In this document: piece by piece, positions 1,705 to 61,312 of the stretch
Numbering within the stretch: the first letter of the stretch is position 1
Layout of the letters: each line of letters opens with the position of its first letter
NCBI RefSeq assembly: GCF_006345805.1
Contig: NC_043001.1
Location: 72,478,001-72,542,000, forward strand
DNA from: Octopus sinensis
Taxonomy: Eukaryota
Reading direction: 5' to 3'
DNA length: 64,000 bases
Notes under the pieces: model-generated
Told to the model about the DNA's origin: nothing
The model's database searches: none
What the model saw: the letters and a program-made list of their open reading frames with translations, nothing else
Translations under genes and position numbers: made by a program

Positions 1705-2535
1705 CGAGGTGGTATCTAAAAGTTCCTGGATTGGTTTTGTAACGCGCCAGCTGATGGCGGTACAGGGTTGCGTGCGCCGTGAGAGCTAGCAGTGAATTTC
1801 GTAAGACAGTGTGCCGAGTGACATCGTTATGTTTACTTCGCAAGTTGTGAAATTTGTGCTTTGTGATCACGTATGCTGTAGTCTGCGATTTTTTGTCATG
1901 GACGAGAAGTTGAAACGAAGAGCCAAAGTAAAATTTTGCGTTAACTTGGGAAGCCTGCTACAGAGAGTTTGAGCATGCTTCGGCAAGCTTACAACGACGA
2001 AGCAACGGATCGTACGCTCTGTTTTGAGTGGCATGGATGCTTCATAAGCAGAAGAACGTTTCACATCGTTTTTTTTTCGACATCCGTGGTGCATCGAGAA
2101 TTTGTCTTCCCAGATCAGACCGTTAATCGAGAGATCTACTGCGACATTTTGAAGCATTCAAGGGAGGACATTCAGCGAAAGCGACCGGATCTGTGGAACA
2201 CGAAGAATTCGATTCTTCACGACGACAATTCACCCCGTCATCGGGCGCTCCTCACTCGTGAGTTTCTCGCCCAAAACAACATGGTATTGCTTCCGCACCC
2301 CCCCTATTCGCCAGATTTAGCCACTACGGACTTACATCTCTTCCCCAAGATGAAAATGCAGCTCAAAGGTCTCTGTTTTAACACCGTTATCGAGATCAAG
2401 AGTGAATTACAAAAGGTTCTCGAGTCGCTTACGGAAAACGACTTCCAGGCCGGATTTCAAAAATAGCAGGAACGCTGGGACCGGTGTATTGCTGTGCAAG
2501 GTGAATATTTCGAAAGAGATGATGTTAAAACTTAG
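1705..2535 (+). mobile_element. mariner (DD34D) element, internally deleted, defective transposase
   Basis: TA+CGAGGTGGTATCTAAAAGTTCC terminus; N-terminal HTH (MDEKLKRRAKVKFCVNLG..QAYNDEA..CFEWH) fused to catalytic C-terminus (HDDNSPRH, PHPPYSPDLA..D, RWDRCIAVQGEYFE). Right TIR not found. Confidence 0.9.
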
Positions 2536-23007: not shown

Positions 23008-23226
23008 AAGGCGGCGAGCTGGCAGAATCGTTAGCATGCCGGGCGAAATGCTTAGCGGTATTTCGTCTGCCGCTACGTTCTGAGTTCAAATTCCGCCGAG
23101 GTCGACTTTGTGTTTCATCCTTTCGGGGTCGATAAATTAAGTACCAGTCGAGTAGTGGGGTCGATGTAATCGACCAGTCCCCCCTCCCAAAAAAAACATT
23201 TCAGGCTTGTGCCTCTAGTAGCAAGG

Positions 23227-23227
<1 letters not shown>
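23008..23227 (+). mobile_element. SINE family A, best-preserved copy, (ATT)n-tailed variant
   Basis: Complete tRNA-like head, central domain, tail ..CAGGCTTGTGCCTCTAGTAGCAAGG(ATT)n. Confidence 0.95.
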
Positions 23228-23259
<32 letters not shown>

Positions 23260-23295
23260 GAGTATAGGTATATTATTATTATTATTATTATTGAG

Positions 23296-24082
23296 TATAG
23301 GTGGTAGAGGCCTTATACAGCTGGAAAACTACTATAAAATAACCACTATAGGACTGCAAAAATATCTACTTCAGAAGGAAGGAAAACTGATACAAATAGC
23401 GGCAAAACACGAGCAAGATAAAAAACTGTTCTCAGTATTTAAGGAAGCTGACAAATACAAACAAGAAATTATACCACCTAATAAATATGAAGAACAAGAA
23501 GAAGAAGATGAAAAAACAACAAAAGCTATAAAACAAATGAAATCCAAACTAAAAATAGAACAGCAACGAACCATGATAAAACGATGGCAAGAAAGGCCCC
23601 TTCATGGTAAATACTGGACTAAACTAAACGCAAAAGAAATAGACAAAGAAAAATCCCAGCAATGGTTGAGAAGCTCAGGACTCAAAGCAGAGACAGAAGG
23701 ATTTTTAATTGCAGCACAAGACCAAAGCCTCCCCACCAGAAATTACCAAAGAAATATAACAAGTAACTGCAGAATATGTGGAGATGGACAAGAAACAATA
23801 AATCATATTATCTCTGGCTACCCAGTCCTGGCTAAGAAGGAATATATTCACAGACATGACAGAGTTGGAACCTACGTACACTGGAAGCTATGCCAACACT
23901 ATGGAATAACAACGGAAAAAAGATGGTATAGGCACACACCAGAAAAGGCACTGCACACATCCTACGCAGAACACTTTCCATACAATAACCATCAGAGCAT
24001 CACAACAAATCACAGCACATACCCAAGGCACGCAGAGCTGCGCTCGGTAGTGAAGTGAAAGCACGCTATAAAAATAAAACTA

Positions 24083-24148
<66 letters not shown>
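23296..24148 (+). mobile_element. R4/Dong-type LINE 3' fragment, endonuclease region deleted, (AAT)n tail
   Basis: GGRGL..PLHGKYW..LKAETEGFLIAAQDQSL..CRICG..ETINHIISG..YIHRHDRV..WYRHTPEK, then jumps to the ORF end/3' UTR and (AAT)n. Confidence 0.9.
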
Positions 24149-25760
24149 CAAGAAAGGAATCTTCCAAGGGGACAGTTGATATTCGTGCTGGAAATGATCC
24201 CCTTGAGTGAAGTACTACAGAAAACAAAGTTGAGTATGATCTGATAGAGGTAAGGAAAAACTAAACTACTTGCTATTCATGAACGACCTGAAGATATTCA
24301 CAAAATTTAAGGCTGAATTGGACAGCCTATTCCAGGCTGTGCGGATTTTCTTCAATGATATTAAGATATTTGGACTCTCAAAATGTGCTACGATGGTGAT
24401 GAGACGAGGAAAGCTTGCAAGGACTGAAGGCTATAAATACCAGGGAATACTTCAGGCAGATGGAGTCAAACACCACGACATGAAGGGAAAGACAAAAAGA
24501 GAGTACCTGCGGCGAATGAGAAAATATTGGCTTCAAAGCTGAATGCTAGAAACATAATTTCGGCAATAAACTCGCGCGCGGTCGGCAATAGTTCGGTATG
24601 GCACTGGAATCCTGAATTGGGCAGAGGAGGAGTTAGAGGAGATGGACAGGAAGTCAAGAAAGCTTCTAACGATGCACAGAGCACATCATTCTCGTGCAGA
24701 CACTGATCGCCTGTACATGAATAGAACAAATAGAGGAAGGGGATTGATAAGTGTGGAAGACTGTGCTTATCGAACTCGAGAGCTTAATGAGATACCTAGC
24801 CCAAAGTAAGGAAACCTTGCTTGTGATTGTTAGGAACGAGGGAGTATTGAGAGCAGAGAAAAAAGAGAAAACAAAGTAAAAGTACAAAAAGGACGTGCAG
24901 AAGAATTGCGCAAGAAGAGACTACACAATCAATTCCATGTAACCACAGCAGAAGTTACTGGAAAAAATAGGTGGGATTGGCTGATGAAAGGAAACCTAAA
25001 AAATGAGATAGAGAGCACTATACTGGCAACGCATGACGAAGCTCTGGCCATGAACTAGAGGATCAGCCTGAAGAATGAGCAAATGTCTCCGCTGTACCGC
25101 ACCTACAATATAGTGGATGAAACCATTGCCCATATCCCGAACGAATGCCCTAGACATGCCCAAAACCATTACAAGTTGTAGCGACACGACCAGGTAGCGA
25201 GAGTGCTACATTGGAAACTATGCGAAAAGTAGTGGCTAGAGAGAGGCAAGACGTGGTATGAGCACAAACCGCAGAAAGTGGTGGAGGCGGGAACTAGCAA
25301 AATCCTCTGGGATTTCCCAATCCAAACAAATCAGGTGCTAGAGCGTAACAGACTGGACCTAGTGGTGGTGGACAAGGTGCCCCACATACGCTATATAGTT
25401 GATGTTGCATGCCACTTTGACTTACGAATATTCAAGAAGGAAGGCGAAAAGATAGATAGATATAAACTTCTTAAGTACGAAATAGTCCGTCTATGGAAAA
25501 TGAAACAGGTGAAGATAGTACCAATTATTATTGGGTCCTTGGGAACAGTATAAGAAGGCATCAAGAGGAATATAAAGGAAATTGGAATAGAGTGTCCAGT
25601 AGAACTGTTACAAAAGCTTTGCCTCCTTGGCACGGCCAGAATAATCAAGAAAGTATTAGAGAGCTGAAAAGAACAGATAGCATGGTACCATAGGCTGCAG
25701 GTAGTAAGCCCGCTACACATGCAAGACTCCAAGAGTTCCAACAAAACCTGTGATAAAAAG
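24149..25760 (+). mobile_element. R4/Dong-type LINE, second family, 5'-truncated and decayed
   Basis: GIFQGDS, LLFMNDLK, FGLSKCA, YKY.GIL, RHDQV, KILWDFPIQT..NRLDLVVVDK..IVDVACHFD..K..KY..VPIIIGSLG (RLE PD-(D/E)xK domain); ends in (AAT)n. Confidence 0.9.
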
Positions 25761-25988
25761 ATAATAATAATGATGATGATGATAATGATAATAATAATGA
25801 TAATAACAGTAGTAGCAGCAGTAGTAGTAGTAGCAGTAGTAGTAGCAGTAGTAGTAGTAGCAGCAGTAGTAGTAGTAGCAGTAGTAGTAGTAGCAGTAGT
25901 AGTAGTAGCAGCAGTAGTAGCAGGAGCAGCAACAGCAGCAGCAGCAGCATTAGTAGTAGTAGTAGCAGTAGTAGTAATAATAATAATG

Positions 25989-26049
<61 letters not shown>
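25761..26049. repeat. (AAT)/(GTA)/(GCA)n compound microsatellite
   Basis: Direct reading. Confidence 0.95.
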
Positions 26050-26051
<2 letters not shown>

Positions 26052-26606
26052 GCCCTGATGCAGTATCAGGCAGTGGCTCTCATGGCTTCTGATCTTAACT
26101 GATTGGAAGTGTTATCATGTACATTGTTTTGTCTTGGTATAAAAGATGGGCTACAGCAAATATTCTGCTCAATACCACAGATTTGCTTGTCAGTTGTTTG
26201 ACCTTAATCAGTTGAGCATGCCCCTTAGTGGCTGACGATATGTGCATCTCTGATCACGAGCAGAAGTAGTGGGGGAGCATCATAGCCATGTGCTGAGAGG
26301 GATTCTTTGGGGTTTGAATAGTTCACCTCTGGAAACATGGGTGGTTCTTTCAACATCCTTAAACAACCCTTATTCAGGGACCGTTTGAGCGGGATGGGCT
26401 ACTCAACCTGAAGAAAATTTTAATTGGGCCCCACCTGCAAGGTCATGTGCTGTTTATCTTGATATGAGATCACCATGTCGCGCACATATGGTTGTGATGC
26501 ATGTGCCTGGTGTACCCTTATCAGACGGGTAGTCATGATGGGTATATTGGGCTTCGTATATTTTACCCCAGTGTCACTTTGATGGCATGAACTGCTCTCT
26601 CACTCA
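26050..26606 (+). mobile_element. Non-coding ~555-bp retro-repeat X with (AAT)n tail
   Basis: Nearly identical to the inverted, 5'-truncated copy at 30428-30846; both sit in (AAT)n; no ORF and no recognisable tRNA head. Confidence 0.75.
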
Positions 26607-26629
26607 GTAATAATAATAATAATAATAAT

Positions 26630-28240
26630 AAAGATCAGCTAATGATCAATAAAGCCATAACTGAAGATAGCCGCAGAAAGAAGAAGGATCTATGTATGGC
26701 CTAGATCGATTACCGAAAGACTTTTGATTGTATTCTCTACACATGGATCTTAGAAACACTAGGCATGAACAAAGGTAACACCAATAATCATATAAAATAT
26801 AACAAACGACATGAATAAATGGCAGACAGTGCTACAGCTCCAGACAAACAGGGACTCATAAAAACCAAAGCCATCACCATTAGAAGAGGAATATTCCAAG
26901 GAGACATGCTCTCTCCACTCCTTTTCTGCCTAACACTGAGACCTTTTTCTAACATGCTAAACAGAACTGAATGTGGATACAACTGTTACGGCAAAACAAT
27001 CACCCACCTCTTATATATGGATGACCTAAAACTGTACGCTGCAAATGATAAACAGCTGGAAACATTACTACAGACAGTACATGAATTTATCAAAGAAATA
27101 AACATGAAATTTGGCTTAGAAAAATGTGCTAAAGCAAACTTGAAAAGAGGAAAACTAGTTAAGAGTGGCATCATCACACTAGATAAGGCAAATGAAATAA
27201 GAGAATTAGACCAAAAGCCAGACATACAATACTTAGGAATCAATGAACTAGACAAGATACAACATATACAAATGAAAGAGAAAATAAAAAAAGACGAGTT
27301 AGATTAATACTGAAAACAGCTCAATGCGAAAAACAAGATAATAGTCATCAACGCTATAGCCGTTCCAGTTATAAATTACAGCTACAATATCCTTAACTGA
27401 ACACTAAGTGAACTAATCAAAATAGACAGGAAAGCAAGAAAGATAATGACAGGATTTAGGATGCACTACCAAAAATCTGACTGAAATCTGACAAAATCTG
27501 ATAGAAAGGTTATATATACAACGTATAGAAGGTGGTAGAGGCCTTTTACAGCTAGAAAACTATTGCAAAAAACCATAGGACTACAAAAATACCTACTTCA
27601 GAAGTAAAGAAAATTAATACAAATAGCCACAAAACACGAACAAAACAAAAAACTGTTTTCAGTCTTTAAGGAAGCTGACACGTACAAAAAGGAAGACATA
27701 CTACCTAACAACTATGAAGAAAAAGAAGAAACAATAAAAGCTATAAAACAGTTGAAATCCAAACTAAAACTGGAACAGCAACGGGTCATGATAAAACGAT
27801 GGCAAGAAAACCCCTTCATGGCAAATACTGGGTTAAACTAAACGCAAAAGAAATGGACAAAGCAAAATCCCAATAATGGCTGAGAAGCTCAGGACTCAAA
27901 GCAGAGACTGAAGGATTTTTAATTGCAGCACAAAACCAAAGCCTCCTCACCAAAATTTACCAAAAACGTATAATGAAAAGAAACATAAGTAAATGCAGAA
28001 TATGTGGAGATGGACAAGAAACAATAAACCATATTGTCTCTGGCTGCCCAGCCATGGCTAAGAAGGAATATATTCCCAGACACGACAGAGCTGGGACGTA
28101 TATACACTGGAAGCTATGCCAACACTATGGAATAACAACAGAAAAACGATAGTATAGGCATACACCAGAGGTCACAGAAAATGAGAAAGCAACTATACTA
28201 TGGGATATGCTATACAGAGAAAGAGAAATTAAAGCCAATA
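26630..28240 (+). mobile_element. R4/Dong-type LINE RT-to-zinc-knuckle fragment (same family as 23296-24148)
   Basis: KDQLMINK, IDYRKTFD, RRGIFQGDMLSPLLFCL, HLLYMDDLKLYA, FGLEKCA; 27530-28170 aligns with 23296-23945. Confidence 0.9.
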
Positions 28241-31269: not shown

Positions 31270-32170
31270 TTGTTGAAGTCTCACAACATCTTGTATTTCT
31301 TACTTTCTAGTATTTTACTAGGTTCATGTCCATACCATTTATCAGTACGTTCAAATCCTAGCTTTCTGCATAGCTTCTAGTGGATTGCTCTCCCTAGATT
31401 GTCGTGTCTTTTCATGCATTCTTTCTGTGCCAGCATGCTACATTCACTTACTATATGAGTAACGCTTTCCTCTCTTGATTTGCATAATCTACATTGGACA
31501 TCTACTTGGTTTTTGACTATCTTGGCGTTTATCCAATTAGTCCTTAATGCTTGATCTTGTGCAGCTACTAGCAAACTCCCTGTCTCCCTCTTCAGCTTTC
31601 CTTTCTGCAACTATAACCATATCTCACTACTACTATTTTCTGCAACTATCTTTACGAATCTACCATGTAACGCCTTCTCCTACCGGTCAGATAATCTCTG
31701 TTCTTCCTTCTGGTTTTAAACTTCATTGGGTTTTTGGTTTCCCTATATCTTTTGACTTCCCTATGTGACTCTGGTAGCTTTTAATAAACTTGTTTCACAA
31801 TTACCAGTATAGGTGTCTGTATCTACTCTAGCTAACTCCACGCAGCCTTCACTAGATTCGTACAATTTAGCTTTGACTTTATTAGCTTCTTCGCCCTTAT
31901 GATGTACTCCTCAATTTTCGTTTTCATTTCTGTAGTTAGTACTCTGTCAGATTGTAACACTCCTAGATACTTATAACTCTCTCCTCCTTTCAATGCTTTT
32001 AATGTCTGGCCATCTGATAATTGGATGCCTTCGCTGTTGACTACCTGTCCTCTTCTCATGACTAATATTGCACACTTATCTACGCCAAATTCTATGCCTG
32101 TATCTTTACTGAAGAGCTTTACAGTCTGTATTAAGGAATCTGTCTCTTTTTCATTCTTACTAAAAATCTT
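31270..32170 (-). mobile_element. R4/Dong-type LINE fragment, further family
   Basis: IEFGVDKCA..GESYKYLGVLQ; LKRETGSLLVAAQDQALRT..CRLCKSREESVTHIVSEC..KRHDNL..WYGHEP. Confidence 0.9.
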
Positions 32171-32191
32171 TGCTCCTACTACTGAGTGTTG

Positions 32192-32246
<55 letters not shown>

Positions 32247-44899: not shown

Positions 44900-45769
44900 C
44901 GAGGGGTACCCAAAAGTAACTGGAAACGTTCTCTGTGGGACAAGCCCGTTGTAGTTCAGGCTTCCGCTGCTAGAAGCCACTTGATGCGACTTCAGGCCGG
45001 CCGGCGTTGTCCAGTGAGGTCATACTGTCATATGGTGCATTTTTGTATTGTAGAGCTTCTTCCCTGTTCATAAATGTTTGCGTTGGCTGAAACAAAGGAA
45101 CAGCGTACTTCCATGATATTCTGTTTTCTGTTGAAGAAAATGGCGGCCGAAACAGTTGTCATACTTCAAACAGCTTACAAGGCTGTTTCCATAAGCAAAA
45201 CACAAATTTACAAGTGGTTTTCACGCGTGTCGCTTCAGACCCAACCTCATTCAGGGCGACCGTCGATCTCCCGAACGAATGAAAACATAATAATTCATGA
45301 AATGGTCTTGGAGGACAGTCACCGAACAATTGACGAACTTGTTGATATGAACGGTGTGTCCTGGAGCTCCTGCGAACGAATTTTGAGCGAGGAATTACGA
45401 ATGGAAAGAGTTGCATCAAAATTTGTGCCTCGTTTGCTCACGGAAGATCAAAAGCAGTCATAACTGAATGCGTGTCCTGAACTGGAAGGACAGTTGGAAT
45501 TTGATCCGGACAATTTATTCGAAGGTTATCACTGGTGACGAAAGCTGGTGCTATGGTATTTGCCGATGTGGAAGAGGTGAAGAAGAACGACGGAAACGTT
45601 AAAAGGCATCACTTCGCAAGTGTTCTATCACTGCTTCGAACTGTGGAAAACGCATCTTGACGGATGCATTGCTTCAAATGGAGAATACTTTGAAAGCATT
45701 AAGTGTAAAGATGTGAACCTAAGTGAATAAAATACTGCAAAATTCGGTGTTCTTTTGGGTACCTCTTCG
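44900..45769 (+). mobile_element. Internally deleted mariner with TIRs and TA TSD
   Basis: TA-CGAGGGGTACCCAAAAG ... CTTTTGGGTACCTCTTCG-TA; HTH (EQRTSMIFCFLLKK.AAET..QTAY..YKWF, SGRPS, FVPRLLTEDQK) and ITGDESWCYG; most of the catalytic domain is deleted. Confidence 0.93.
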
Positions 45770-46821: not shown

Positions 46822-47552
46822 GTATAAGTATGTGCATATGTGTGTGTATAGGTGTGTGTATATATATGTGTGTGTGCATATATATATATGTATATGTATA
46901 TACATGTATAAATATATATGTATGTATATAGGTGAATAAATATGCGTGTGTATAATTATACAAACACACACACGCACACACACATGAAACCATAGAGAAT
47001 TAGTTGTATTGTCAGATAGACATGATACGGCTTCATCTACTGTAATATCATCATATGGATCAGACATGCTCACACACACACACATACGGACGTCACACAG
47101 ACATATACACACGCACGCATATACACACAGACATATACACACGCACACATGTGGATCCAAAATCATACACATGTACATATGCATGTGTACGTGGATATAA
47201 ACATGCACATCTACTGCCATATCACCAGATGCTTTACGCACGCACACGTAAGCACAAACTAATGCGTAAATACATATGCACATACATGCATAAATACATA
47301 CATATACACATGCATGCATGCACGCACGCAAACATACATACATACAAATACATACATTAGTATTTGTTATATTAACATATGGATTACACTCCCAAAAGAC
47401 ATATACGTACGCACATTTACACACACACACTTATATACACACTTATAGATATATAGATATGTATATATATATGTATATATATGTATATATATATGTATAT
47501 ATATGTATATATATATGTGTATGTATATATATATATATATAGGAATATATAT

Positions 47553-47884
47553 GTGGAAGCACTCCGTCGGTTACGACGACGAGGGTTCCGGTTGATCCGA
47601 ATCAACGGAACAGCCTGCTCGTGAAATTAACGTGTAAGTGGCTGAGCAATCCACAGACATGTGTACCCTTAACGTAGTTCTCGGGGATATTCAGCGTGAT
47701 ACAGGTACAACAAAAACAGGAAGTAAGAGTGAGAGAAAGTTGTGGTGAAAGAGTACTGCAGGGATCACCACCATCCCCTGCCGGAGACTCGTGGAGTTTT
47801 CAGGTGTTTTCGCTCAATAAACACTCACAACGCCCGGTCTGGGAATCGAAACCGCGATCCTAACCACTGGGCCATTGCGCCTTC
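47553..47884 (-). mobile_element. tRNA-head SINE, family C, with 12-bp TSD
   Basis: Minus-strand head GGCGCAATGGCCCAGTGGTTAGG..GGTTTCGATTCCC; TSD AGGAATATATAT at 47541-47552 and 47885-47896; related pieces at ~17240-17410 and ~61115-61285. Confidence 0.9.
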
Positions 47885-47898
47885 AGGAATATATATAT

Positions 47899-48805
47899 AT
47901 AGGAGATAGGGGTACGTTACGCCGCAATAATATATGTATAGAAATTAAATATAAATTATAAATTACAAAGTGGGACAAGAACGCAAAAACACACAAAAAG
48001 ACGACACAAAAAAAAAAAAGACGGGTCACTCGAAGCCTCTAATCTTTCGTCGGGAACCGGATCAGCTTAGCAATTTCGGCTGTTTAATCTCGATATCGCT
48101 CCGATCCGGCCAGCCCCAAAGAAAAACTAAGCCACGGGCATTAGATTTCTTGGAAAGAGGATCGAATGTATACGAAACAAGGACAGGATGCCACACGAAT
48201 ATAAATACAAGAAACAAAAAATAGAAATAAAAAACAAGAATAGTAAACAGGACAAAATCTTGCGGGTGTCTTACGACTTCAGACAATTTTTAACTTATCT
48301 TGGCTGGCGTATTTGAAACAGGATTGGCTTAACAATAGAAGTGACGGTGCAAATAAGAATGGGGGAAGAATCAGAGGCAAAGAAAGAGAAAGACACAGAC
48401 TATAGAGAGAGTGTGTGTAAAGACGTCGTACAAGGTGTGGCCGGATCGGAGCGATATCGAGATTAAACAGCCGAAATTGCTAAGATGATCCGGTTCCCGA
48501 CTGAAGATTAGAGGCTACGAGTGACCCGTCTGTTTTTTTTGTGTCGTCTCTTTGTGTGTTTTTGAGTTCTTGTCCCACTTTGTAATTTATAATTTATATT
48601 TAATTTCTATACATATATTATTGCGGCGTAACGTTCCCCTATCTCCTATGTATGCACATTCCACCTTGTACGACGTCTTTACACACACTCTCTCTATAGT
48701 CTGTGTCTTTCTCTTTCTTTGCTTCTGATTCTTCCCCCATTCTTATTTGCACCGTCATTTCTATTGCTAAGCCAATCCTGTTTCTTCTCCCCTCTTTAAT
48801 TCCTT

Positions 48806-48844
<39 letters not shown>

Positions 48845-49341
48845 CTGGTGCCTTCGTCCCTTTCTTTCTTTCTCTCTCTCTTTGATTCCTTGCCCCCTGC
48901 CTTTCTTTCTCTTTCTTCCGTGCTCTCACGTGACCGCCTTCAAACTGGTCTTTCCGGTTCGACCGCTACCATGTTAACACTGTTGTTTTCGTCTGCCGCA
49001 AAGGCATTTTTCAAATACGCCAGCCAAGATAAGTTAAAAATTGTCTGAAATCGTAAGACACCCGCTGATTTTGTCCTGTTTACTATTCTTGTTTTTTATT
49101 TCTATTTTTTGTTTCTTGTATTTATATTCGTGTGGCATCCTGTCCTTGTTTCGTATACATTCGATCCTCTTTCCAAGTTTTTCTTTGGGGCTGGCCGGAT
49201 CGGAGCGATATCGAGATTAAACAGCCGAAATTGCTAAGATGATCCCGTTCCCGACTGAAGATTAGAGGCTTCGAGTGACCCGTGTGTTTTTTTGTGTCGT
49301 CGCTTTGTGTATTTTTGCGTTCTTGTCCACACTTTGTAATT
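47899..49341. mobile_element. Non-coding Penelope-like repeat: partial tandem plus inverted copy
   Basis: 48438-~48590 recurs at 49192-49341 (period ~754 bp); 47899-48437 is an inverted, internally deleted copy of the same unit. The architecture is typical of PLE pLTRs; no RT/GIY-YIG ORF. Confidence 0.6.
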
Positions 49342-49614
49342 ATAAGTTTTTTTAATTCTATACCCACACAACACACACACACAAAACATATATATATAAA
49401 TAAATATAATATGTATATATATATATATTATATATTATATATATGTAGGGAGACGTAAAGTATACTAGCCATCTCAATATGGCTAACCACTAAGGGTGGG
49501 TGTTTACTGTAGCTTTTAGCCCCAGGAGATCATCGTCTCCAGCTGGCTTTAGGCACACTTTCTGTACTCTTATGGTATTTGCAAAGGGAGGTCATCCCTC
49601 TCTCGCAAACCTAA

Positions 49615-49672
49615 GTGATACGCACGGACTGCAGTTTCGAGGTATTTGCCTCTTGTCAACGTACGGTAATAC
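49615..49672 (-). ncRNA. Type I hammerhead ribozyme, U3-A8 core variant (mirror copy)
   Basis: Exact reverse complement of the core and proximal stems of 49753-49811; one G is missing in distal stem I. Confidence 0.8.
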
Positions 49673-49752
49673 CGGTTTACGATGAAAGGAAGACCTGTTT
49701 GCAAATACTTACGGGTTTTTCTACTAACTTCCGTCACTGATTTCAAAAACCG

Positions 49753-49811
49753 GTGATTACCGTACGTTGACAAGAGGCAAATACCTCGAAACTGCAGTCC
49801 GTGCGTATCAC
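49753..49811 (+). ncRNA. Type I hammerhead ribozyme, U3-A8 core variant
   Basis: GUGAU-UAC-CGUACG [UUGACAA] GAGG-CAAAUA-CCUC [GAAA] CUGCAG [UC] CGUGCG-U-AUCAC. Stem I is 6+5 bp with an internal loop, stem II is 4 bp, stem III is palindromic; predicted cleavage after GUC at 49799. Confidence 0.85.
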
Positions 49812-50020
49812 TTAGGTTTGCAAGAGAGGGATGACCTCCCTTTGCAAATACCATAAGGGCACAGAAAGTGTGCCTAAAGCCAGCTGGAGACAATGATCTC
49901 CTGGGGCTAAAAGCTACAGTAACACCCATCCTTAGTGGTTAGCCATATTGAGATGGCTTGTATACTTTACGTTGTCGAGCAGTTATTGTTTATATCTCGT
50001 TCAGAGATTTCTTATTGCTT

Positions 50021-50225
50021 ATATAGGGAGAGTTTACGAAAAAAAAACAACAAAAGACGAAGACAGGTGGTGTACAAAACAAACAGATATATTAGTATAA
50101 CACTCAGGAATATAAAAAAGTCTTTACGTTTCGAGCCTACGCTCTTCTACAGAAAGGGACACAGAAAAAACAAGGAGAGAAAAAAAAAGGAGAGAAAAAT
50201 GTGGCTAACGATTTATCATGGCGAC
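50021..50225 (-). mobile_element. Penelope-like pLTR fragment with degenerate minimal hammerhead
   Basis: Minus strand 50152-50125: CUGUAGA-A-GAGC-GUAG-GCUC-GAAA-CG-UA (A6 replaced by U). Confidence 0.6.
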
Positions 50226-50258
<33 letters not shown>

Positions 50259-52099
50259 TACACACATACATATACACATACAAACACACAGACACATATA
50301 TGTATAATACATAAATACAGCACATATATGCATACAAATATTCCTGTGCATACACATGTAAATGTACAAAGACACTTATGCATATTCACATATACATACA
50401 TGCACACATATTCGTGTTTGGATATGTATAGGCATACGCATTATCTGTAATAGGCATACACATTATCAAAAATATTCATAGACATAAATACATAAATACA
50501 TAAACACACACACACTGCCTGTATACTACCCACGCACATCCTATAAGCTGCACACGCACGCAAGCATGTGCTCACACACAAATATACAGCGTCAAACATA
50601 AATATAGATATATAATATATACACACATTACGCATGCACACACACACACACGTGCTCAGACACAAATATGCATTTGCAGTATACACTCACACTACGCACG
50701 CGCACGCACACACACGTGATTACATGAACAGCATGCATATACGCATAACATAACTTTTCACACAATGATTTTAACAGAAACATATTCATATACATATACA
50801 TATATTCATGTGTGTCCGCATATATGTATATGAATGTATGTTTGTTTGCGTGTGTGTATGTGTATGCACGCGCTCGTGTGTCCTTTTGCGTGCGTGTTTC
50901 TCTGTGTGTGTGTGTGTGCGTGTGTAATTTGTGTGTATTAATGTTTGTTTTATGTCAAGTTATATGTAAAAACAATTCAATATTAAATTGAAGGGTTACT
51001 CGATACTTTAAGTAAAACATATGTTTATTAAAGTTTTAGAAAGAAAAGGTTGTCAGTGATTTCGAAGTTTCGGCTTGCTCGCCTTTATGAGCTTTTATTT
51101 TACTCGAGTTCTTTGTGGTCTTATATAACATTTGACAGTTTGCTTATTTGTGAGGTAAGTGCAGTTATGTCACCAACTGAATTTGACACATCTGTATGTA
51201 CATTTACTTCCACGCGAGACTGTAACATAAACAATAACAAAATTCCTGTATCAAACCAGAATAAATCTCATCAGCCTATCTTTATATGAATCCACATCTT
51301 ACAAACACATACTTTCCTTCTTTCCTTTTCAATCTCCTTTTCTACATAACTACTTACCTGATCTACTTACACGACACCCAATTATTAGTCATATAGATTT
51401 ACCTACAATACAAAACAAAAAGAAACAAATTAAAGAGCAGTCTGACGAAGGCAACCAAACCAAATCTTTGAAATCCCAGTAAGACATAATATAAATGTTA
51501 CACCCACCTCCACACATTCATAACTTTAAAATATATTTACCCTCATTCATCCACATCAGTTCGTAATTCAAGGTACTGAAATGTTTTGCAAAATAGTTAG
51601 AGAGAAATAAGAAGTCAGGCTTCTTCATTCACAATTTAACATGCTTCTAACTTACTGTTGAAGGTAAATATATTTTAAAGTTATGAATATTTTTTTCATA
51701 AAATATGGAATATACAGCTGAAGATTGCAATATGTACCAAATTTAAATAACATTAATTTTAAAAATTAATTTATTTAGTTTGTGCATTAAACATGAAAGT
51801 AGTTCTGTATTAACCACCGTAATTTTAAAATAAACTTCATTCATCTCGCTCGCATTCTACAATAATTTCGTATCAAGGTAAATTATCGATGTTTTATTTA
51901 AACATTGATAATTCAACACGCAAGGAAGATAAGTTTTTTAAATGCTCTTCTTCCTCTCTCTATGTTTATATATATATATATATACATAATTTGTCGGCCC
52001 AACGTCAAGATAGAAGCATGTTGAATTGTGAACGAAGATGCATGACTTTTTATTTCTCTCTGCCCATTTTGCAAAAAAAAAAGACAATTTGATTTTTGG

Positions 52100-52176
<77 letters not shown>

Positions 52177-52531
52177 TATATATATATATATATATATATG
52201 AAAAATTCCTCAGTCTGGCTATTTTTCTCTCTACAAAACGGAAAGTTGCATTGTGGAACAGTCGTTTTAACGAGATTTGTTTTATTTATTTATCACCCGA
52301 CGAGATACGTCTGCACTACCGGATACTCCTGAACCAGTTTTTGTGTTTCGCACAAGAAGAGTCGATGCTAGATGTGTCGAAACAATTGTTGTGATTTATA
52401 ATATATTCTCGTATATTCCATCTTCTGTTTTTCATTTGTTATTTACCTAACGATCACTCTGAAAGTGACCATGCTTTACCAGTAAGATACCAGCCAGGTG
52501 TAAACCATTCGTTTTATTATCCATTAATATA

Positions 52532-52605
<74 letters not shown>

Positions 52606-52685
52606 CGTGTGTGTGTGTGTGGTGTGTGTGTGTGTGTGTGTAGGTAGAGTCAACAGAAAAAAGTACTCCATCGAGTGAAAGATAA

Positions 52686-52872
52686 ATATCAATTTAATAC
52701 ATAACCGAAAGAGCTATTAATAGTTTCATGCTTTTATGATACTTGAACATGCATATTTATTAGATACGCCATGTATCTCAAAGCAATCTTTGAGGTGTAT
52801 TTTATAAATGTGCCTGTTCAAGTATCATAAAAGCATGAAACTATTAATAGCTCTTTCGGTTGTGTATTAAAT

Positions 52873-52878
<6 letters not shown>
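52686..52878. mobile_element. Palindromic MITE-like element, ~75-bp arms
   Basis: 52686-52760 is the near-perfect reverse complement of 52804-52878. Confidence 0.85.
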
Positions 52879-52909
<31 letters not shown>

Positions 52910-53000
52910 TAGATGATAGATAGATAGATAGATGGATAGATAGATACAAACATACATACATAAATGCATACATACATTCTTATGTGTATGTGTGTCTATG

Positions 53001-55423: not shown

Positions 55424-58400
55424 GTCAGGTCGCTCTAGAGTGCTACTGGTAACATGTAATCCAGTACAACCTGTTGCATGGTCGGGACGTCGGCGACTAA
55501 ACTGACAACCCCACCAGGTTCGCTTGGTGAGGAGGGTGCTGTTGGACTCCCTGTGGGATGGAAAAATAAGACCCAACAAAGGGCGGATGAACTCCCGAAG
55601 AGTCAACGGGCCATCCAACAAAATACCGGCCTGCCCGCCCAGCCAGTGGGATGGCGTCATCTTATGGCTAAAACAGCACGAAGAAAGAAGAGAAAAGGAA
55701 AAGGGCCTCAGTACCCTGCACGTCAATCGGGCCACTCCATGACGGCGGAGTGCAACTCGAGCGACGAGAAGCTGCTAAGAATCACAGGTTCCCGAAAGCC
55801 GTCATGGAACAGGAGTAAACTTGCCATATGCACCTACAACTGCAGGTCTATGGCAGGATGGCAAGAACTGAACCACCTAATGGAGGAGAGGAAGAAGATC
55901 AGGTGCGACGTGTTAGGGCTGTGCGAGACACGCTGGAAGACGGAAGCGAGTAAACGATGGCAAGATGGATGCATTGTGAGATTAGGAAAAGCAGAAGGTG
56001 TTAGATCGGTCGGAGGTATCGGATTCATCGTAAGTAAGGAATGGGCTTCGAGGGTCGCTTCTTGCCACTTCATATCATCACGGATTGGTGTACTAAATGT
56101 GAACCTCTCAGGGAAGGCCACCCTCAAGATTGTCCAGACCTATGCTCCCACAAGTACCAGCGACGACGACGAGGTGGAAGAATTCTATCGACAACTAGAC
56201 AAAGGGTTGGCTATGAAGTCCACTTACACTGTCGTGATGGGAGACTTCAACGCAAAGGTTGGACATGGACGACAAGGAGAGGAATACGTCGGGAGATTTG
56301 GCATGGGAGAGAGAAACGAGAGAGGGGAACGTTTGGCTACCATGGCAGAGGCGAGGCAGCTCTACATCGGAAACAGCCTATTCAGGAAGAGGGAGAGGAA
56401 GAGATGGACTTGAATATCGCCGAACTCTAAGCACCGAAGCGAGATCGACTACATCCTGGTTGATAAGCGACGCATATTGCATGACGTCTCCGTCATGACG
56501 CCATTCAACGCCGGCAGCGATCATCGTCTGGTAAGGGCGAGAGTCGTCATCGACGAGAAGAGGGAGAAGATGGCGTTATATTTGGCGTCGAAGGGAAAAC
56601 GTGTCCGAGTCTACAACGAGGCAAAGCTGCAGGAAGCCATCATGCAGGAAGACTGGTGCCAAGGAGACGATATAGACGATGACTACAACTCACTGATAGG
56701 GAAACTGAAGGAGTGTTTAAGGAAGGCTAAGGGTGTATGCCCAAGAGAAAAGAAGGGAAGAATCTCGGAAGAAACTACGAAGTTACTCGAGAAGAGGAAA
56801 AATATGAAGAGGACTATTGAAGATCACCTTGAATATTCCATTCTCAGCAGAGTGATTCGTCAGCAACTAAAGAAAGACTTTGAGGCATATCGGATGGAGA
56901 AGCTCTTGAAGGCCGCAGAGAAAAAGAAGAGCCTCAAGAAATGCAAGCGGGACATGGTACTATATAGATCGGAGGTGATGGCCCTGAAAAATACAGATGG
57001 AATACCGGTCAACGAGAAGAGCGAGATGGAAAAAGCTTGTGAAGACTTCTACACCAAGCTCTTTAAGTCTACCAGAAATGTCCAGCCGTTACCACCACTC
57101 CAACAGGAAGAAAACGTGCCACCTATCCTTGTCAGTGAGGTTGAAAGAGCCATCGGCTCGATGAAAAAAGGAAAGGCTCCAGGGAAAGACGGTATAACAT
57201 CGGAGGTGCTAAAGTCAGGCAGAGAGCAGCTCTGGAAAATCCTCGCTGAGCGATTTACGCACTATCTAGACGAGGGAAGAATTCCCTCGCAATGGAAAGA
57301 GTCAAATACCATAAGAAGGGCGACAGAGAAGATCTAAAGAACTACCGACCCATATGCCTGCTATCTCACGTGTACAAGCTGTTCACGAAGATAATTCTGA
57401 ACAGGTTGTCACGTCGTCTCGACGAACAACAACCGAGGGAGCAAGCAGGCTTCCGGAAGAAACTACAGCACAATGGACCATATATTTGCTCTAACGCAAC
57501 TGATTGAGCGAGCAAATGAGTACAAGCTGCCTCTTTGCGTTGCGTTTATAGATTATGAGAAGGCCTTTGATTGCGTCGAAACCAACGCAGTGCTGAACTC
57601 GCTGCAGAGGCAAGGAATCGAAGCACAATATGTGCAGCTGCTCAGAGAGGCAAATTCCGGATGCACCACCGACATAGCTCTACTGTCATCACCCATACGA
57701 GTGCCGGTCGAGAAGGGAGTGAAGCAAGGAGATACAATCTCCCCAAAACTTTTCACTGCATGTCTCGAACAGATCATCAGAGACATCGAATGGCAAGGTG
57801 GTGTCAACATCAATGGCGAGCTCCTCACTCACCTTCGTTTCGCTGACGACATCGTACTCATCGCTGAAAACATGGATCAGCTTCAGACCATGCTGACGGA
57901 GCTCGACATCAAAAGTTCTGCAGTAGGTCTCAAGATGAACCGCATGAAAACAAAGTTCATGCGGTCAGACAAAGTACCAACAGGTCGAATGGTGATTGTC
58001 AGTGATGAAATAGAGGAGGTGAGAGAATATGTCTACCTGGGACAGGAAGTAAATATGTGCCGGATATCAAAGAGGAGAGCTCACGGATGGAAGGCGTTCA
58101 ATGGCATGAGGTATGAGCTCAAGGGAAGGTTGGACAGGACCACCCGCGCCAACCTCATTAACAGTGCAGTTCTGCCTGCAATGTTATATGGTAGTGAAAC
58201 ATGGGCTACCACAAAGAGAGAAGAGCAAAGACTGATAACGGCTCAAAGAGCCATGGAAAGGTCATTGCTTGGTATCTCGTTGAGAGAGCACATAAATAGC
58301 AACATCATCAGAAAGAAGTCCGGCGTGAGAGATGTCATCGCAGAGTATACTCGCAGCAAGTATAGATGGGCTAGACACGTTGCCCGGCTCACCGATAATC

Positions 58401-58608
58401 GGTGGACGCTCGCAGTTGTCGAGTGGTACCCGCGTGAGCGGAAAACACCACCCAGAAGACCTCCACGACGGTGGAGTACGATTTCAAGAGGACGATTGGG
58501 ATCACGTGGATGAGAAAGGCGCGATCCAGAGAGGAGTGGACAGCGTGCTGTGACCAGCGGTGTCAAATGGACGCCTGAAGAACTGGTCGGTCAAAGTGAT
58601 CAAGTGAA

Positions 58609-58612
<4 letters not shown>
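55423..58612 (+). mobile_element. Near-full-length RTE-clade LINE (APE + RT), disrupted
   Basis: APE motifs TYNCRS, LGLCETRW, YAPT, MGDFNAKVG, IDYILV, SDHRLV; RT motifs [58 protein letters not shown] at 56411 plus frameshifts near 57310, 57460 and 58485; tail (AAGTGA)-like repeats; flanked by (TA)n. Confidence 0.97.
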
Positions 58613-58674
<62 letters not shown>

Positions 58675-58699
58675 GAGATGTGGAACACGAGTTGTGATA

Positions 58700-60928
58700 T
58701 ATAAAAAAAGGAAATGAAGAAAATGCTGACAAAATAATTTGAGTAAGGGAGAGTGTATTTAAGTAGGTGAAAGTTCTTTTTTTAAACATAAAAAGAGAAA
58801 AATTGGGTTAGAATACAATGTTCATTTTTTGTGAATGATTTCAGTGTATAAGTAAAAATGTAAGAGTCTTTTACAGTGTTCTGTTTCAGAATAAGATATT
58901 TAGTAAAAGCGTGTAATATACAGTTTTTTGTGGAAAAGTTCAATGTCAGATTTCAGTGTAGAAAAAAAAAAGTAAGAGTTTACTATTGCGCATTTGTTAT
59001 GCTTATCAAAAGATATTTTGAGTGAGATAGAGTTCCTTTCTGATTGATTTTTTCTCTTATTGACTTTATGTTGGGTTTGCTGTCTCTTATATGTGAAAAA
59101 AGAGGCTCCAGAGTTGTTAAGATTTGCTTGGTTTCGCGCTAAAATTTCTTGTGGACAATGGTCAATACAATTTTGATTGGTCATTATAAAGGAGTCACGT
59201 GAATGTTTGAATGGAAGTTGGTGTTGGGTAAGAAAATAGGCTCCAGAGATGTTAAAATTTGGCTGGTATCGCGCCAAAATTTCTTATTGGTCATAATAAA
59301 GAGGTCACGTGAAGTGGTCATAATAGAGAGGTCACGTGAATGTTTAGAATGAATGTTGGTGTGGGTGGGGTGGGTTTTCGAAAATAGCGTGTTGAAAATT
59401 CTTATTGTTCAGGCTGGTCAGTAGACGTCATGTGGATATTTTGAATAGCTTTTTAGCGCGTAGTTCAAAGGAGTGTATTTTCCGCTTGACTGAATTTGGG
59501 CTGGAAAAGTAAGTTCGTTTAGGACAGGAAGAGCTACATGTATGTGTGTGTGTGGTGTGTGCGCGCGCGCGCGCGCGCGTGTGTGTGTGTGTTTATATGT
59601 ATGTTGGGGCGCGCGCGCGTGTATATATGTGTGCGTGTGTGGGTACAATTTTCAATATTTATAGTACTGCTGGCCTTGTGCCTGTATCGGGAAGCAACGT
59701 GTTTGTGTGAAGTCAATATTTACAGTCATTTCAAAAAAATAGTGTTGGATGTTTTGCACCCGTATCAAATTATGTGTATGTGTGGACCATATGTTTGCGT
59801 GTGTCATGGTGTTAATATCTGGGTAAAAGTGTGTGTAGGGTGTGTGCAGGTGTAAGTGTGTTTGTTGTGGGTTCGTGTTAGGGGGATGTGTTTAGAAGTG
59901 GTAAATATTGACTTCAAACAAACACGTTGCTTTCCGATACAGGCACAAGGCCAGCAGAACTATAAATATTGAAAATTGTACCCACACACGCACACATATA
60001 TACACGCGCGCGCCCCAACATACATATAAACCCACACACACCACACACACACGCGCGCGCGCGCGCACACACACACATACATATAGCTCTTCCTGTCCTA
60101 AACGAACTTATTTTTCCAGTTCAAATTCAGTCAAGCGGAAAATACACTCCTTAACTACGCGCTAAAAAGCTATTCAAAATATCCACATGACGTCTACTGA
60201 CCAGCCTGAACAATAAGAATTTTCAACAACGCTATTTTCGAAAACCCCACCTACCACCCACACCAACATTCATTCTAAACATTCACGTGACCTCTCTATT
60301 ATGACCACATTCACGTGACCTCTTTATTATGACCAATAAGAAATTTTAGGCGCGATACCAGCCAAATTTTAACATCTCTGGAGCCTATTTTCGTACCCCA
60401 ACATCAACTTCCATTCAAACATTCACGTGACTCCTTTATAATGACCAATCAAAATTGTATTGACCATTGTCCACAAGAAATTTTAGGTGCGAAACCAAGC
60501 AAATCTTAAACAACCCTGGAACCTCTTTTTTCACATGTAAGAGACAGCAAACCCAACATAAAGTCAGATAAGAGAAAAAAATCAATCAGAAAGGAACTCT
60601 ATCTCACTCAAAATATCTTTTGATAAGCATATTAAATGCGCAACCGGTAAACTCTTACTTTTTTTATTCTACACTGAAATCTGACATTGAACTTTTCCAC
60701 AAAAAACTGTATATTACACGCTTTTACTAAATATCTTATTCTGAAACAGAACACTGTAAAAGACTCTTACTTTTTTTCTTATACACTGAAATCATTCACA
60801 AAAAATGGACATTGTATTTTAACCCAATATTTCTCTTTTTTTGTTTAAAAAAAGAACTTTCACCTAATTAAATACACTCTCCCTTACTTAAATTATTTTG
60901 TCAGCATTTTTTGCATTTCCTTTTTATA
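58700..60928. mobile_element. ~2.2-kb foldback element (~1.02-kb inverted arms, ~177-bp spacer)
   Basis: 58700-59723 is the reverse complement of 59901-60928 throughout, with scattered substitutions; no ORF. Confidence 0.9.
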
Positions 60929-60951
60929 ACACACACACACACACACACCAC

Positions 60952-61015
<64 letters not shown>

Positions 61016-61312
61016 TTATATTATACATAATATATATATACGAAAACATCTAAAAGCTCGTATATATATAATATATATATATATTATAGATTATATATAT
61101 ATATAATATATATATACGAAAACACCTAAAAGCTCCACGTATGGGGTGTTGACGACTCTGTTGTACTTTTTCACCACAACTTTCTCCACCCTCTCTTCCT
61201 GTTTCTTGAAGCTGGGGGGAACACATACGCTACAGAAACCGGGCCCATGAGCCTGGCTAGGCTTGAAAAGGGCAGCGTTTACCGCTATATATACATCTAT
61301 GTATATATATAT

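What the first reader, a model, noticed from the sequence alone, without database searches (positions are those of the whole stretch)
49453..50031. Twin type I hammerhead ribozymes with a compensatory U3-A8 core on opposite strands of a non-coding inverted repeat
Seen: both ~226-bp arms contain stem I (CGUACG/CGUGCG, internal loop, GUGAU/AUCAC), core UUGACAA, stem II GAGG-CAAAUA-CCUC, GAAA, palindromic stem III ACUGCAGU and a GUC site. The ~8 arm differences all fall outside the core. Downstream sequence folds into further hairpins (UUUGCAA..UUGCAAA, GGCACA-GAAAG-UGUGCC, AGCCAU-AUUGAG-AUGGCU). Known: C3-G8 is a Watson-Crick pair in the active hammerhead and U3-A8 is a tolerated natural variant; Penelope-like pLTRs carry minimal type I hammerheads with palindromic stem III thought to act as dimers. 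Inference: two coordinated core changes point to selection for activity, and a CUGANGA-only search would miss this family. It may be a non-autonomous, ribozyme-processed retrozyme-like RNA. Transcription from either side would meet one ribozyme and also form a ~226-bp dsRNA.
Basis: partly seen in the sequence, partly recalled or inferred. Interest (0 to 1): 0.85.

Follow-up and report, generated by a model that had tools for sequence, protein, structure and literature searches.

The report
Inverted insertion of a hammerhead retrozyme
The two hammerhead motifs are the two halves of one back-to-back insertion of a 353-base repeat found at thousands of places in this genome; it is likely a small self-cutting parasitic RNA (retrozyme) copied by Penelope-type transposon proteins, a known kind of element, and its U3-A8 core marks one young branch of a family whose older branches have the usual C3-G8.

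Summary
The motifs are real: two type I hammerheads with a U3-A8 core, predicted cuts after 49799 (+) and 49627 (-). A descriptor scan finds only these two in the window and none in 20 shuffles. They are not a purpose-built twin device. They are one head-to-head insertion of a 353-nt non-coding repeat: arm - is unit 11-305, arm + is unit 77-353, joined by a 7-nt overlap and flanked by a 12-bp target duplication. The 'spacer' is the unit's own 5' part. The family has about 2,600 hammerhead matches, tandem arrays and covarying stems. Older subfamilies carry C3-G8 (398 matches with this stem III), U3-A8 (280) is derived, and mismatched cores are rare (9 and 9). Copies end at two sites 48 nt apart, the Penelope 'tail'; 39 of 41 classifiable inverted insertions have one of each end. 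Best reading: a non-LTR retrozyme mobilised in trans by a Penelope-like element. U3-A8 cores, opposite-strand pairs and inverted copies are all in print. This copy is probably inactive, because read-through RNA is predicted to zip the ribozyme into a hairpin. The partner element, cleavage and circular RNA are not shown.

The parts
49442..49453 (.). Left target-site duplication (matches 50020-50031 at 11 of 12 bases; 8-bp exact core TAGGGAGA) at the end of a (TA)n tract
49454..49749 (-). Inverted arm: repeat unit positions 11-305, ending at the short 3' end (no tail)
   Evidence: (L001), unit taken from the natural tandem L005:1425-1777
49615..49672 (-). Type I hammerhead, U3-A8 core (U3 49659, C17 49627); distal stem I weakened by a 1-nt loss
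49679..49749 (-).
49743..49749 (.). 7-nt overlap (microhomology) shared by the two arms at the inversion junction
49743..50019 (+). Direct arm: unit positions 77-353, ending at the long 3' end
49753..49811 (+). Type I hammerhead: U3 49767, A8 49772, stem II 49774-49787, G12 49788, palindromic stem III 49791-49798, C17 49799 (predicted cut after it)
49972..50019 (+). [quoted passage not shown]
50020..50031 (.). Right target-site duplication

Best explanation
This is one head-to-head insertion of a 353-nt, non-coding, hammerhead-bearing repeat family, likely a non-LTR retrozyme that a Penelope-like element's reverse transcriptase-endonuclease copies into AT-rich DNA. Shown: closed ~353-nt unit, tandem arrays, conserved and covarying ribozyme, two fixed 3' ends 48 nt apart, variable 5' truncation, inverted 5' pieces, target duplications, (TA)n targets. 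Inferred: tandem copies are transcribed; two hammerheads pair through the palindromic stem III and cut after GUC, which would free a compact 353-nt RNA that may circularise. Inferred: a PLE protein cuts both strands of the target and primes cDNA from each end, one starting at unit 353 and the other at 305; the two cDNAs join by a short microhomology, giving this inverted pair with a tail on one side. The U3-A8 core is a compensatory swap that likely arose once in a young branch and kept amplifying. This particular copy is likely a dead end.
For: Family: 3577 candidates, 40 scored, those at 93-100% identity on many contigs; 2676 ribozyme-pattern matches vs 47 for the reversed control. Closed unit: natural tandem periods of 353 (L005), 351-356 (L166, six units) and 354 (L164) in subfamilies down to ~65-73% identity. 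Structure: 91% of cells paired, 11 of 20 pairs with two-sided changes, 0 of 500 shuffles as high on three of five measures; stem III stays self-complementary in 29 of 29 distinct rows with GC/CG swaps. Cut-to-cut units fold as circles at z -7.5, -5.8 and -3.3. PLE signature: right ends at 353 in 32, at 305 in 18, other in 3 of 53 loci; inverted 5' piece in 27 of 53; non-simple TSD >=7 bp in 5 of 53 vs 0.06 in shuffled pairings; (TA)3+ right flank in 22 of 53. Outer ends mixed in 39 of 41 classifiable inverted insertions out of 55 (Fisher p 3e-9). This matches the published tail, inverted copy, TSD and two-site initiation of PLEs. RT+GIY-YIG ORFs of 775-883 aa exist in the genome. U3-A8 nested inside C3-G8 lineages; one clade not rejected, p-AU 0.485, with the ribozyme columns left out. 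Rare changes in the core 8/966 vs 199/11135 downstream (biased towards well-kept copies).
Against: No autonomous element with a similar pLTR was found: the unit has no significant match to the 3' regions or loci of the PLE families checked (12 stretches, one 18-nt hit at E 0.04), and none of 160 unit-bearing loci has the unit as a pLTR (7 had PLE fragments nearby, judged by strand, distance or, for L113 and L162, by reading). No cleavage, RNA end or circle was shown. Most copies are dispersed monomers or partial tandems, not the long arrays typical of retrozymes. In the one PLE tested in vitro, hammerhead cleavage was not needed for insertion (PMC11167929), so the ribozyme's role is open. Two of the five covariation measures were weaker (12 and 44 of 500 shuffles) and the rows are related. 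The loci were the best-scoring hits, not a random sample.
Confidence: 0.8

Rival explanations
1. The copies are 5'-truncated ends (solo pLTRs) of an autonomous Penelope-like element that my searches missed; there is no independent retrozyme RNA.
For: All insertion hallmarks are those of PLEs. The GIY-YIG search scored only 150 of 5029 candidates, so families can be missed. Truncated PLE ends with single hammerheads are common (PMC4209133).
Against: Upstream of unit position 1 lies unit position 353 again, in young and old subfamilies alike. No ORF adjoins the unit in 160 loci. Helices pair the unit's 5' part with its 3' part in the circular fold, with compensatory changes at two pairs in 3 of 26 rows.
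Confidence: 0.12
2. The inverted pair at this locus is a selected device: a bidirectional self-cleaving cassette or a dsRNA/siRNA source.
For: Both cores are intact; a read-through transcript would form a long hairpin (-451.7 kcal/mol predicted).
Against: Inverted layouts occur in 27 of 53 loci with variable junctions. The arms differ at 8 of 227 columns, a rate like other insertions, and the intact core is expected by chance (P 0.28). The antisense arm precedes the ribozyme in either direction and is predicted to sequester it; an opposite-strand copy cannot be the dimer partner in cis.
Confidence: 0.04
3. The family is retroposed by PLE proteins, but the U3-A8 ribozyme no longer cuts; the pair swap is a neutral double change that hitch-hiked with one master copy.
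For: The swap fits a single origin. PLE hammerheads cut poorly in vitro and cleavage was dispensable for PAc insertion.
Against: No amplified C3-A8 or U3-G8 subfamily exists (9 and 9 matches vs 398 and 280). U3-A8 copies went on to change stems II and III while keeping the pairing. U3-A8 is reported as active in vitro (passage in PMC3088659). Other PLE families here also show U3-A8 cores.
Confidence: 0.1

Closest known systems
Non-LTR retrozymes (Cervera and De la Pena 2020, PMC7229834; Li et al. 2026, bioRxiv 10.64898/2026.07.22.740005)
   Same: Non-coding unit of 170-400 nt (350-390 in mussel) with one type I hammerhead per unit, tandem arrays plus dispersed monomers, compact predicted circle, PLEs in the same genome.
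   Different: Circular RNA and cleavage not shown here; mostly dispersed and often 5'-inverted; carries the PLE two-end tail signature, which the passages I read do not report for retrozymes; no matching PLE pLTR found; U3-A8 in one branch.
Penelope-like element pLTRs and their insertions (PMC8557442, PMC3846280, PMC11167929)
   Same: Partial tandems, adjacent inverted 5'-truncated copy, head-to-head junction with short overlap, tail at one end only, TSD of about 8-12 bp, AT/(TA)n targets, hammerhead inside.
   Different: No RT-GIY-YIG ORF; the unit closes on itself; the tail is 47-48 nt against the 30-40 bp reported.
U3-A8 minimal hammerheads of Schistosoma mansoni Cercyon PLEs (PMC4209133) and natural U3-A8 hammerheads (PMC3088659)
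   Same: Same core covariation; opposite-strand pairs 100-700 bp apart were also seen in S. mansoni.
   Different: Here the ribozyme has a 6+5 bp stem I, a 4-bp stem II and an 8-nt palindromic stem III (more canonical than minimal), and close C3-G8 sister subfamilies survive in the same genome.

Membership tests
Type I hammerhead ribozyme | Conserved core with a 3-8 pair, GAA and NUH, three helices, open at stem I | tested here: met
Type I hammerhead ribozyme | Covariation of helices among relatives | tested here: met
   11 of 20 pairs with two-sided changes; slid controls far lower
Type I hammerhead ribozyme | Match to an Rfam hammerhead model | tested here: not met
   none at E<=1 in 47000-53000
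Type I hammerhead ribozyme | Self-cleavage after N17 | not testable with these tools
   needs an in vitro assay
Non-LTR retrozyme | Non-coding 170-400 nt unit with a type I hammerhead | tested here: met
   353 nt; no PLE protein match in the window
Non-LTR retrozyme | Tandem repeats with two or more consecutive units with complete hammerheads | tested here: met
   family level: L005 (U3-A8 dimer), L017, L166; this locus itself has no tandem
Non-LTR retrozyme | Highly self-paired unit RNA | tested here: met
   predicted only: circular MFE z -7.5, -5.8, -3.3
Non-LTR retrozyme | Abundant unit-length circular RNA in tissue | tested here: inconclusive
   no holder on record as RNA; contigs cannot show ends, strand or circles
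Non-autonomous derivative mobilised by a PLE | Tail at one end, inverted/tandem layout, TSD, AT-rich target | tested here: met
Non-autonomous derivative mobilised by a PLE | Sequence similarity to the pLTR of an autonomous PLE | tested here: inconclusive
   none in the families sampled; only 150 of 5029 GIY-YIG candidates scored
Autonomous Penelope-like element | RT plus GIY-YIG ORF between pLTRs | tested here: not met
   no such ORF in the window

The most novel reading that the evidence does not exclude
A long-lived retrozyme lineage whose insertions record the Penelope mechanism directly: each inverted insertion is primed from both cut target ends, one cDNA starting at each of two fixed sites (39 of 41), which would tie animal retrozymes to PLE proteins by mechanism and not only by co-occurrence. 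The same family keeps a graded series of ribozyme cores (C3-G8 with a C.A mismatch closing stem II, then U3-A8 with C.A, then U3-A8 with G-C), a natural experiment on how a catalytic base pair is swapped.
Probability: 0.5. Interest if true: 0.58.

Novelty: new member of a known kind. Interest (0 to 1): 0.36.

Why it matters
The locus itself is ordinary. The family is useful in two ways. It gives countable genomic support for a two-ended priming model of Penelope-type insertion and for PLE proteins moving retrozymes, both still open questions. And it offers close natural C3-G8 and U3-A8 sister ribozymes for a direct kinetic comparison. It also shows that CUGANGA-only and Rfam scans undercount hammerheads in this genome.

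Tried and rejected
Rfam scan: no hammerhead model hit. Autonomous partner: GIY-YIG search and 18 fetched regions gave several RT-EN families; unit relatives beside PLE fragments at L113, L120 and L162 read as separate insertions (TA-flanked, wrong strand, or interrupting the PLE's own hammerhead-like motif). Expression: no RNA holder listed. Four of 24 listed runs, guessed to be RNA (3 studies), hold contig pieces across the unit, but contigs show no strand, ends or circles and no silent control was laid; not used as evidence. Circle versus multimer template: pieces within one insertion differ at 12-15% of polymorphic sites vs 26% between loci, and L016 and L049 mix variants; inconclusive. RNAalifold on the whole unit recovered the local helices but not the long-range pairing, which was counted separately (12-25 of 26 rows paired per position). 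First tree kept the trait columns and was redone without them; 18 of 137 copies were dropped as too short. Earlier scan notes: nothing. Literature: 8 searches listed no paper that describes this family by title or abstract; I did not see supplements or Repbase, where it may be catalogued. Lunse et al. 2017 was not held and is known to me only through a review passage.

Full report
Observation. On the + strand U3 is 49767, G12 49788 and C17 49799; on the - strand U3 is 49659 and C17 49627. The arms align over 227 columns with 8 differences. A relaxed type I descriptor finds only these two sites in the window and none in 20 shuffles; Rfam misses them. Details to correct: the - arm lacks one G of the distal stem I, the clean core is expected by chance (P 0.28), and one of the listed hairpins depends on a change private to the + arm.

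What it is. A DNA search of the own genome gave 3577 candidates; the best hits of the 40 scored are 93-100% identical and lie on many contigs. A natural tandem (L005) defines a 353-nt unit. Mapped on it, the window holds unit 11-305 on the - strand (49454-49749) joined by a 7-nt overlap to unit 77-353 on the + strand (49743-50019). The 'spacer' is therefore the unit's 5' part. An 11-of-12 match flanks the whole (49442-49453 and 50020-50031), so this is a single insertion at the edge of a (TA)n tract.

Family anatomy. Of 60 loci from two searches, 53 are distinct. Among them 27 have an inverted 5' piece, 36 have more than one same-strand piece, and right ends fall at 353 (32), 305 (18) or elsewhere (3); 5 have a non-simple TSD of 7 bp or more against 0.06 in shuffled pairings, and 22 end in (TA)3+ (L035 and L049 were trimmed to the central cluster). 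Two more subfamilies, about 74% and 72% identical to the unit, show the same two ends (26 and 29 distinct loci). Pooling, 55 insertions are inverted; in 41 both outer ends are classifiable, and 39 have one short and one long end, 2 have two long ends, none two short (Fisher p 3e-9). These are best-scoring hits, not a random sample, but the end of the inverted arm was not selected for. Unit position 353 is followed by position 1 in young and old subfamilies, with periods of 351-356 and an array of six units in L166.

The ribozyme. A wider pattern gives 2676 matches against 47 for the control; of 20 regions fetched from that list, 18 align to the unit and 2 do not. With stem III fixed as here, cores count C3-G8 398, U3-A8 280, C3-A8 9, U3-G8 9 (controls 0, 4, 0, 0). 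On 29 distinct representatives 91% of cells pair, 11 of 20 pairs show two-sided changes, and the 8-nt stem III remains self-complementary in all rows, as needed for a dimer (duplex -11.1 kcal/mol; the monomer hammerhead fold is 4.8 kcal/mol above the MFE). A tree built without the ribozyme columns nests U3-A8 inside C3-G8 lineages and does not reject one origin (119 of 137 copies, p-AU 0.485). The nearest C3-G8 sisters have a C.A mismatch closing stem II; one U3-A8 copy (L038) still has it and most others have G-C. Cut-to-cut units fold as compact circles (z -7.5, -5.8, -3.3).

Mechanism. Shown: the points above. Inferred: tandem loci are transcribed, hammerheads dimerise and cut, and a 353-nt RNA or its multimer is bound by a PLE protein that cuts both target strands, primes cDNA at 353 from one end and at 305 from the other, and the two cDNAs join by microhomology. 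This follows the in vitro behaviour of the anole PLE, which extends both strands from two start sites that define the tail (PMC11167929). RT-GIY-YIG ORFs of 775-883 aa with a CxnCxxC linker are present in the genome, but none sampled shares sequence with the unit. For this locus a read-through RNA is predicted to form one hairpin of -451.7 kcal/mol covering the ribozyme, so I read the pair as a by-product.

Against this reading: no partner element, no cleavage data and no RNA evidence (searches are uninformative); cleavage was dispensable for insertion in the anole system; circle versus multimer template is unresolved.

Comparison with print. PMC4209133 (parts 1-2 of 4 read) reports U3-A8 in Schistosoma PLE hammerheads, opposite-strand pairs and low in vitro activity. 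PMC3088659 (passages) reports natural U3-A8. PMC8557442 and PMC3846280 (passages) describe inverted copies, one-sided tails and TSDs. PMC11167929 (parts 1-2 of 4). PMC7229834 (passages and section 14) describes 350-390 bp mussel retrozymes expressed as circles. bioRxiv 10.64898/2026.07.22.740005 (part 1 of 5, passages, section 14) derives retrozymes from pLTRs. PMC6765202 and PMC3884650 (passages). No supplements were seen. Hammerhead numbering and the general twin-priming idea are recalled.

Verdict. A real, well-supported hammerhead in a new member of a known class. The twin layout and the U3-A8 core are both precedented. The family's value lies in its countable insertion signature and its series of core variants. 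Interest 0.36.

Noticed in passing
window 47886-49363: A separate repeat family right beside the finding (4427 candidates, 40 scored; period about 710 nt in L183) with partial tandem plus inverted layout and two 3' ends about 44 nt apart, but no hammerhead by my descriptor; may be another non-autonomous PLE derivative.
   Followed up: partly
L111 2424 (-), L112 5163 (+), L121 5069 (+), L126 2058 (-), L073 328 (-): Two RT-GIY-YIG families of this genome have hammerhead-like motifs with U3-A8 cores and short palindromic stem III downstream of their ORFs; another family (L122 5132) has C3-G8.
   Followed up: partly
L113 3242-6318 (-), L115 674-4377 (+), L118: These PLE-like elements show two overlapping ORFs (an upstream one of up to 479 aa with no Pfam match, then RT-GIY-YIG), whereas canonical PLEs are described with one ORF.
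   Followed up: no
L091-L110 and other C3-G8 copies: A C.A mismatch at the base of stem II (10.1-11.1) is fixed in large subfamilies; others have U.U, A-U, G.U or G-C there.
   Followed up: partly
L177, L178: Hammerhead-like cores with the same ACUCGAGU palindrome that do not align to the 353-nt unit; possibly another family.
   Followed up: no
window 55460-58513 (+): Broken non-LTR retrotransposon ORFs with endonuclease- and RT-like sequence (RTE-like by recall); further fragments near 23222-27307 and 31832-32194.
   Followed up: no
window 58612-61021: Inverted repeat with 1.1-kb arms, 93% identical.
   Followed up: no
window 1945-2466 and 45074-45463: Mariner-like transposase fragments, named by recall.
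   Followed up: no
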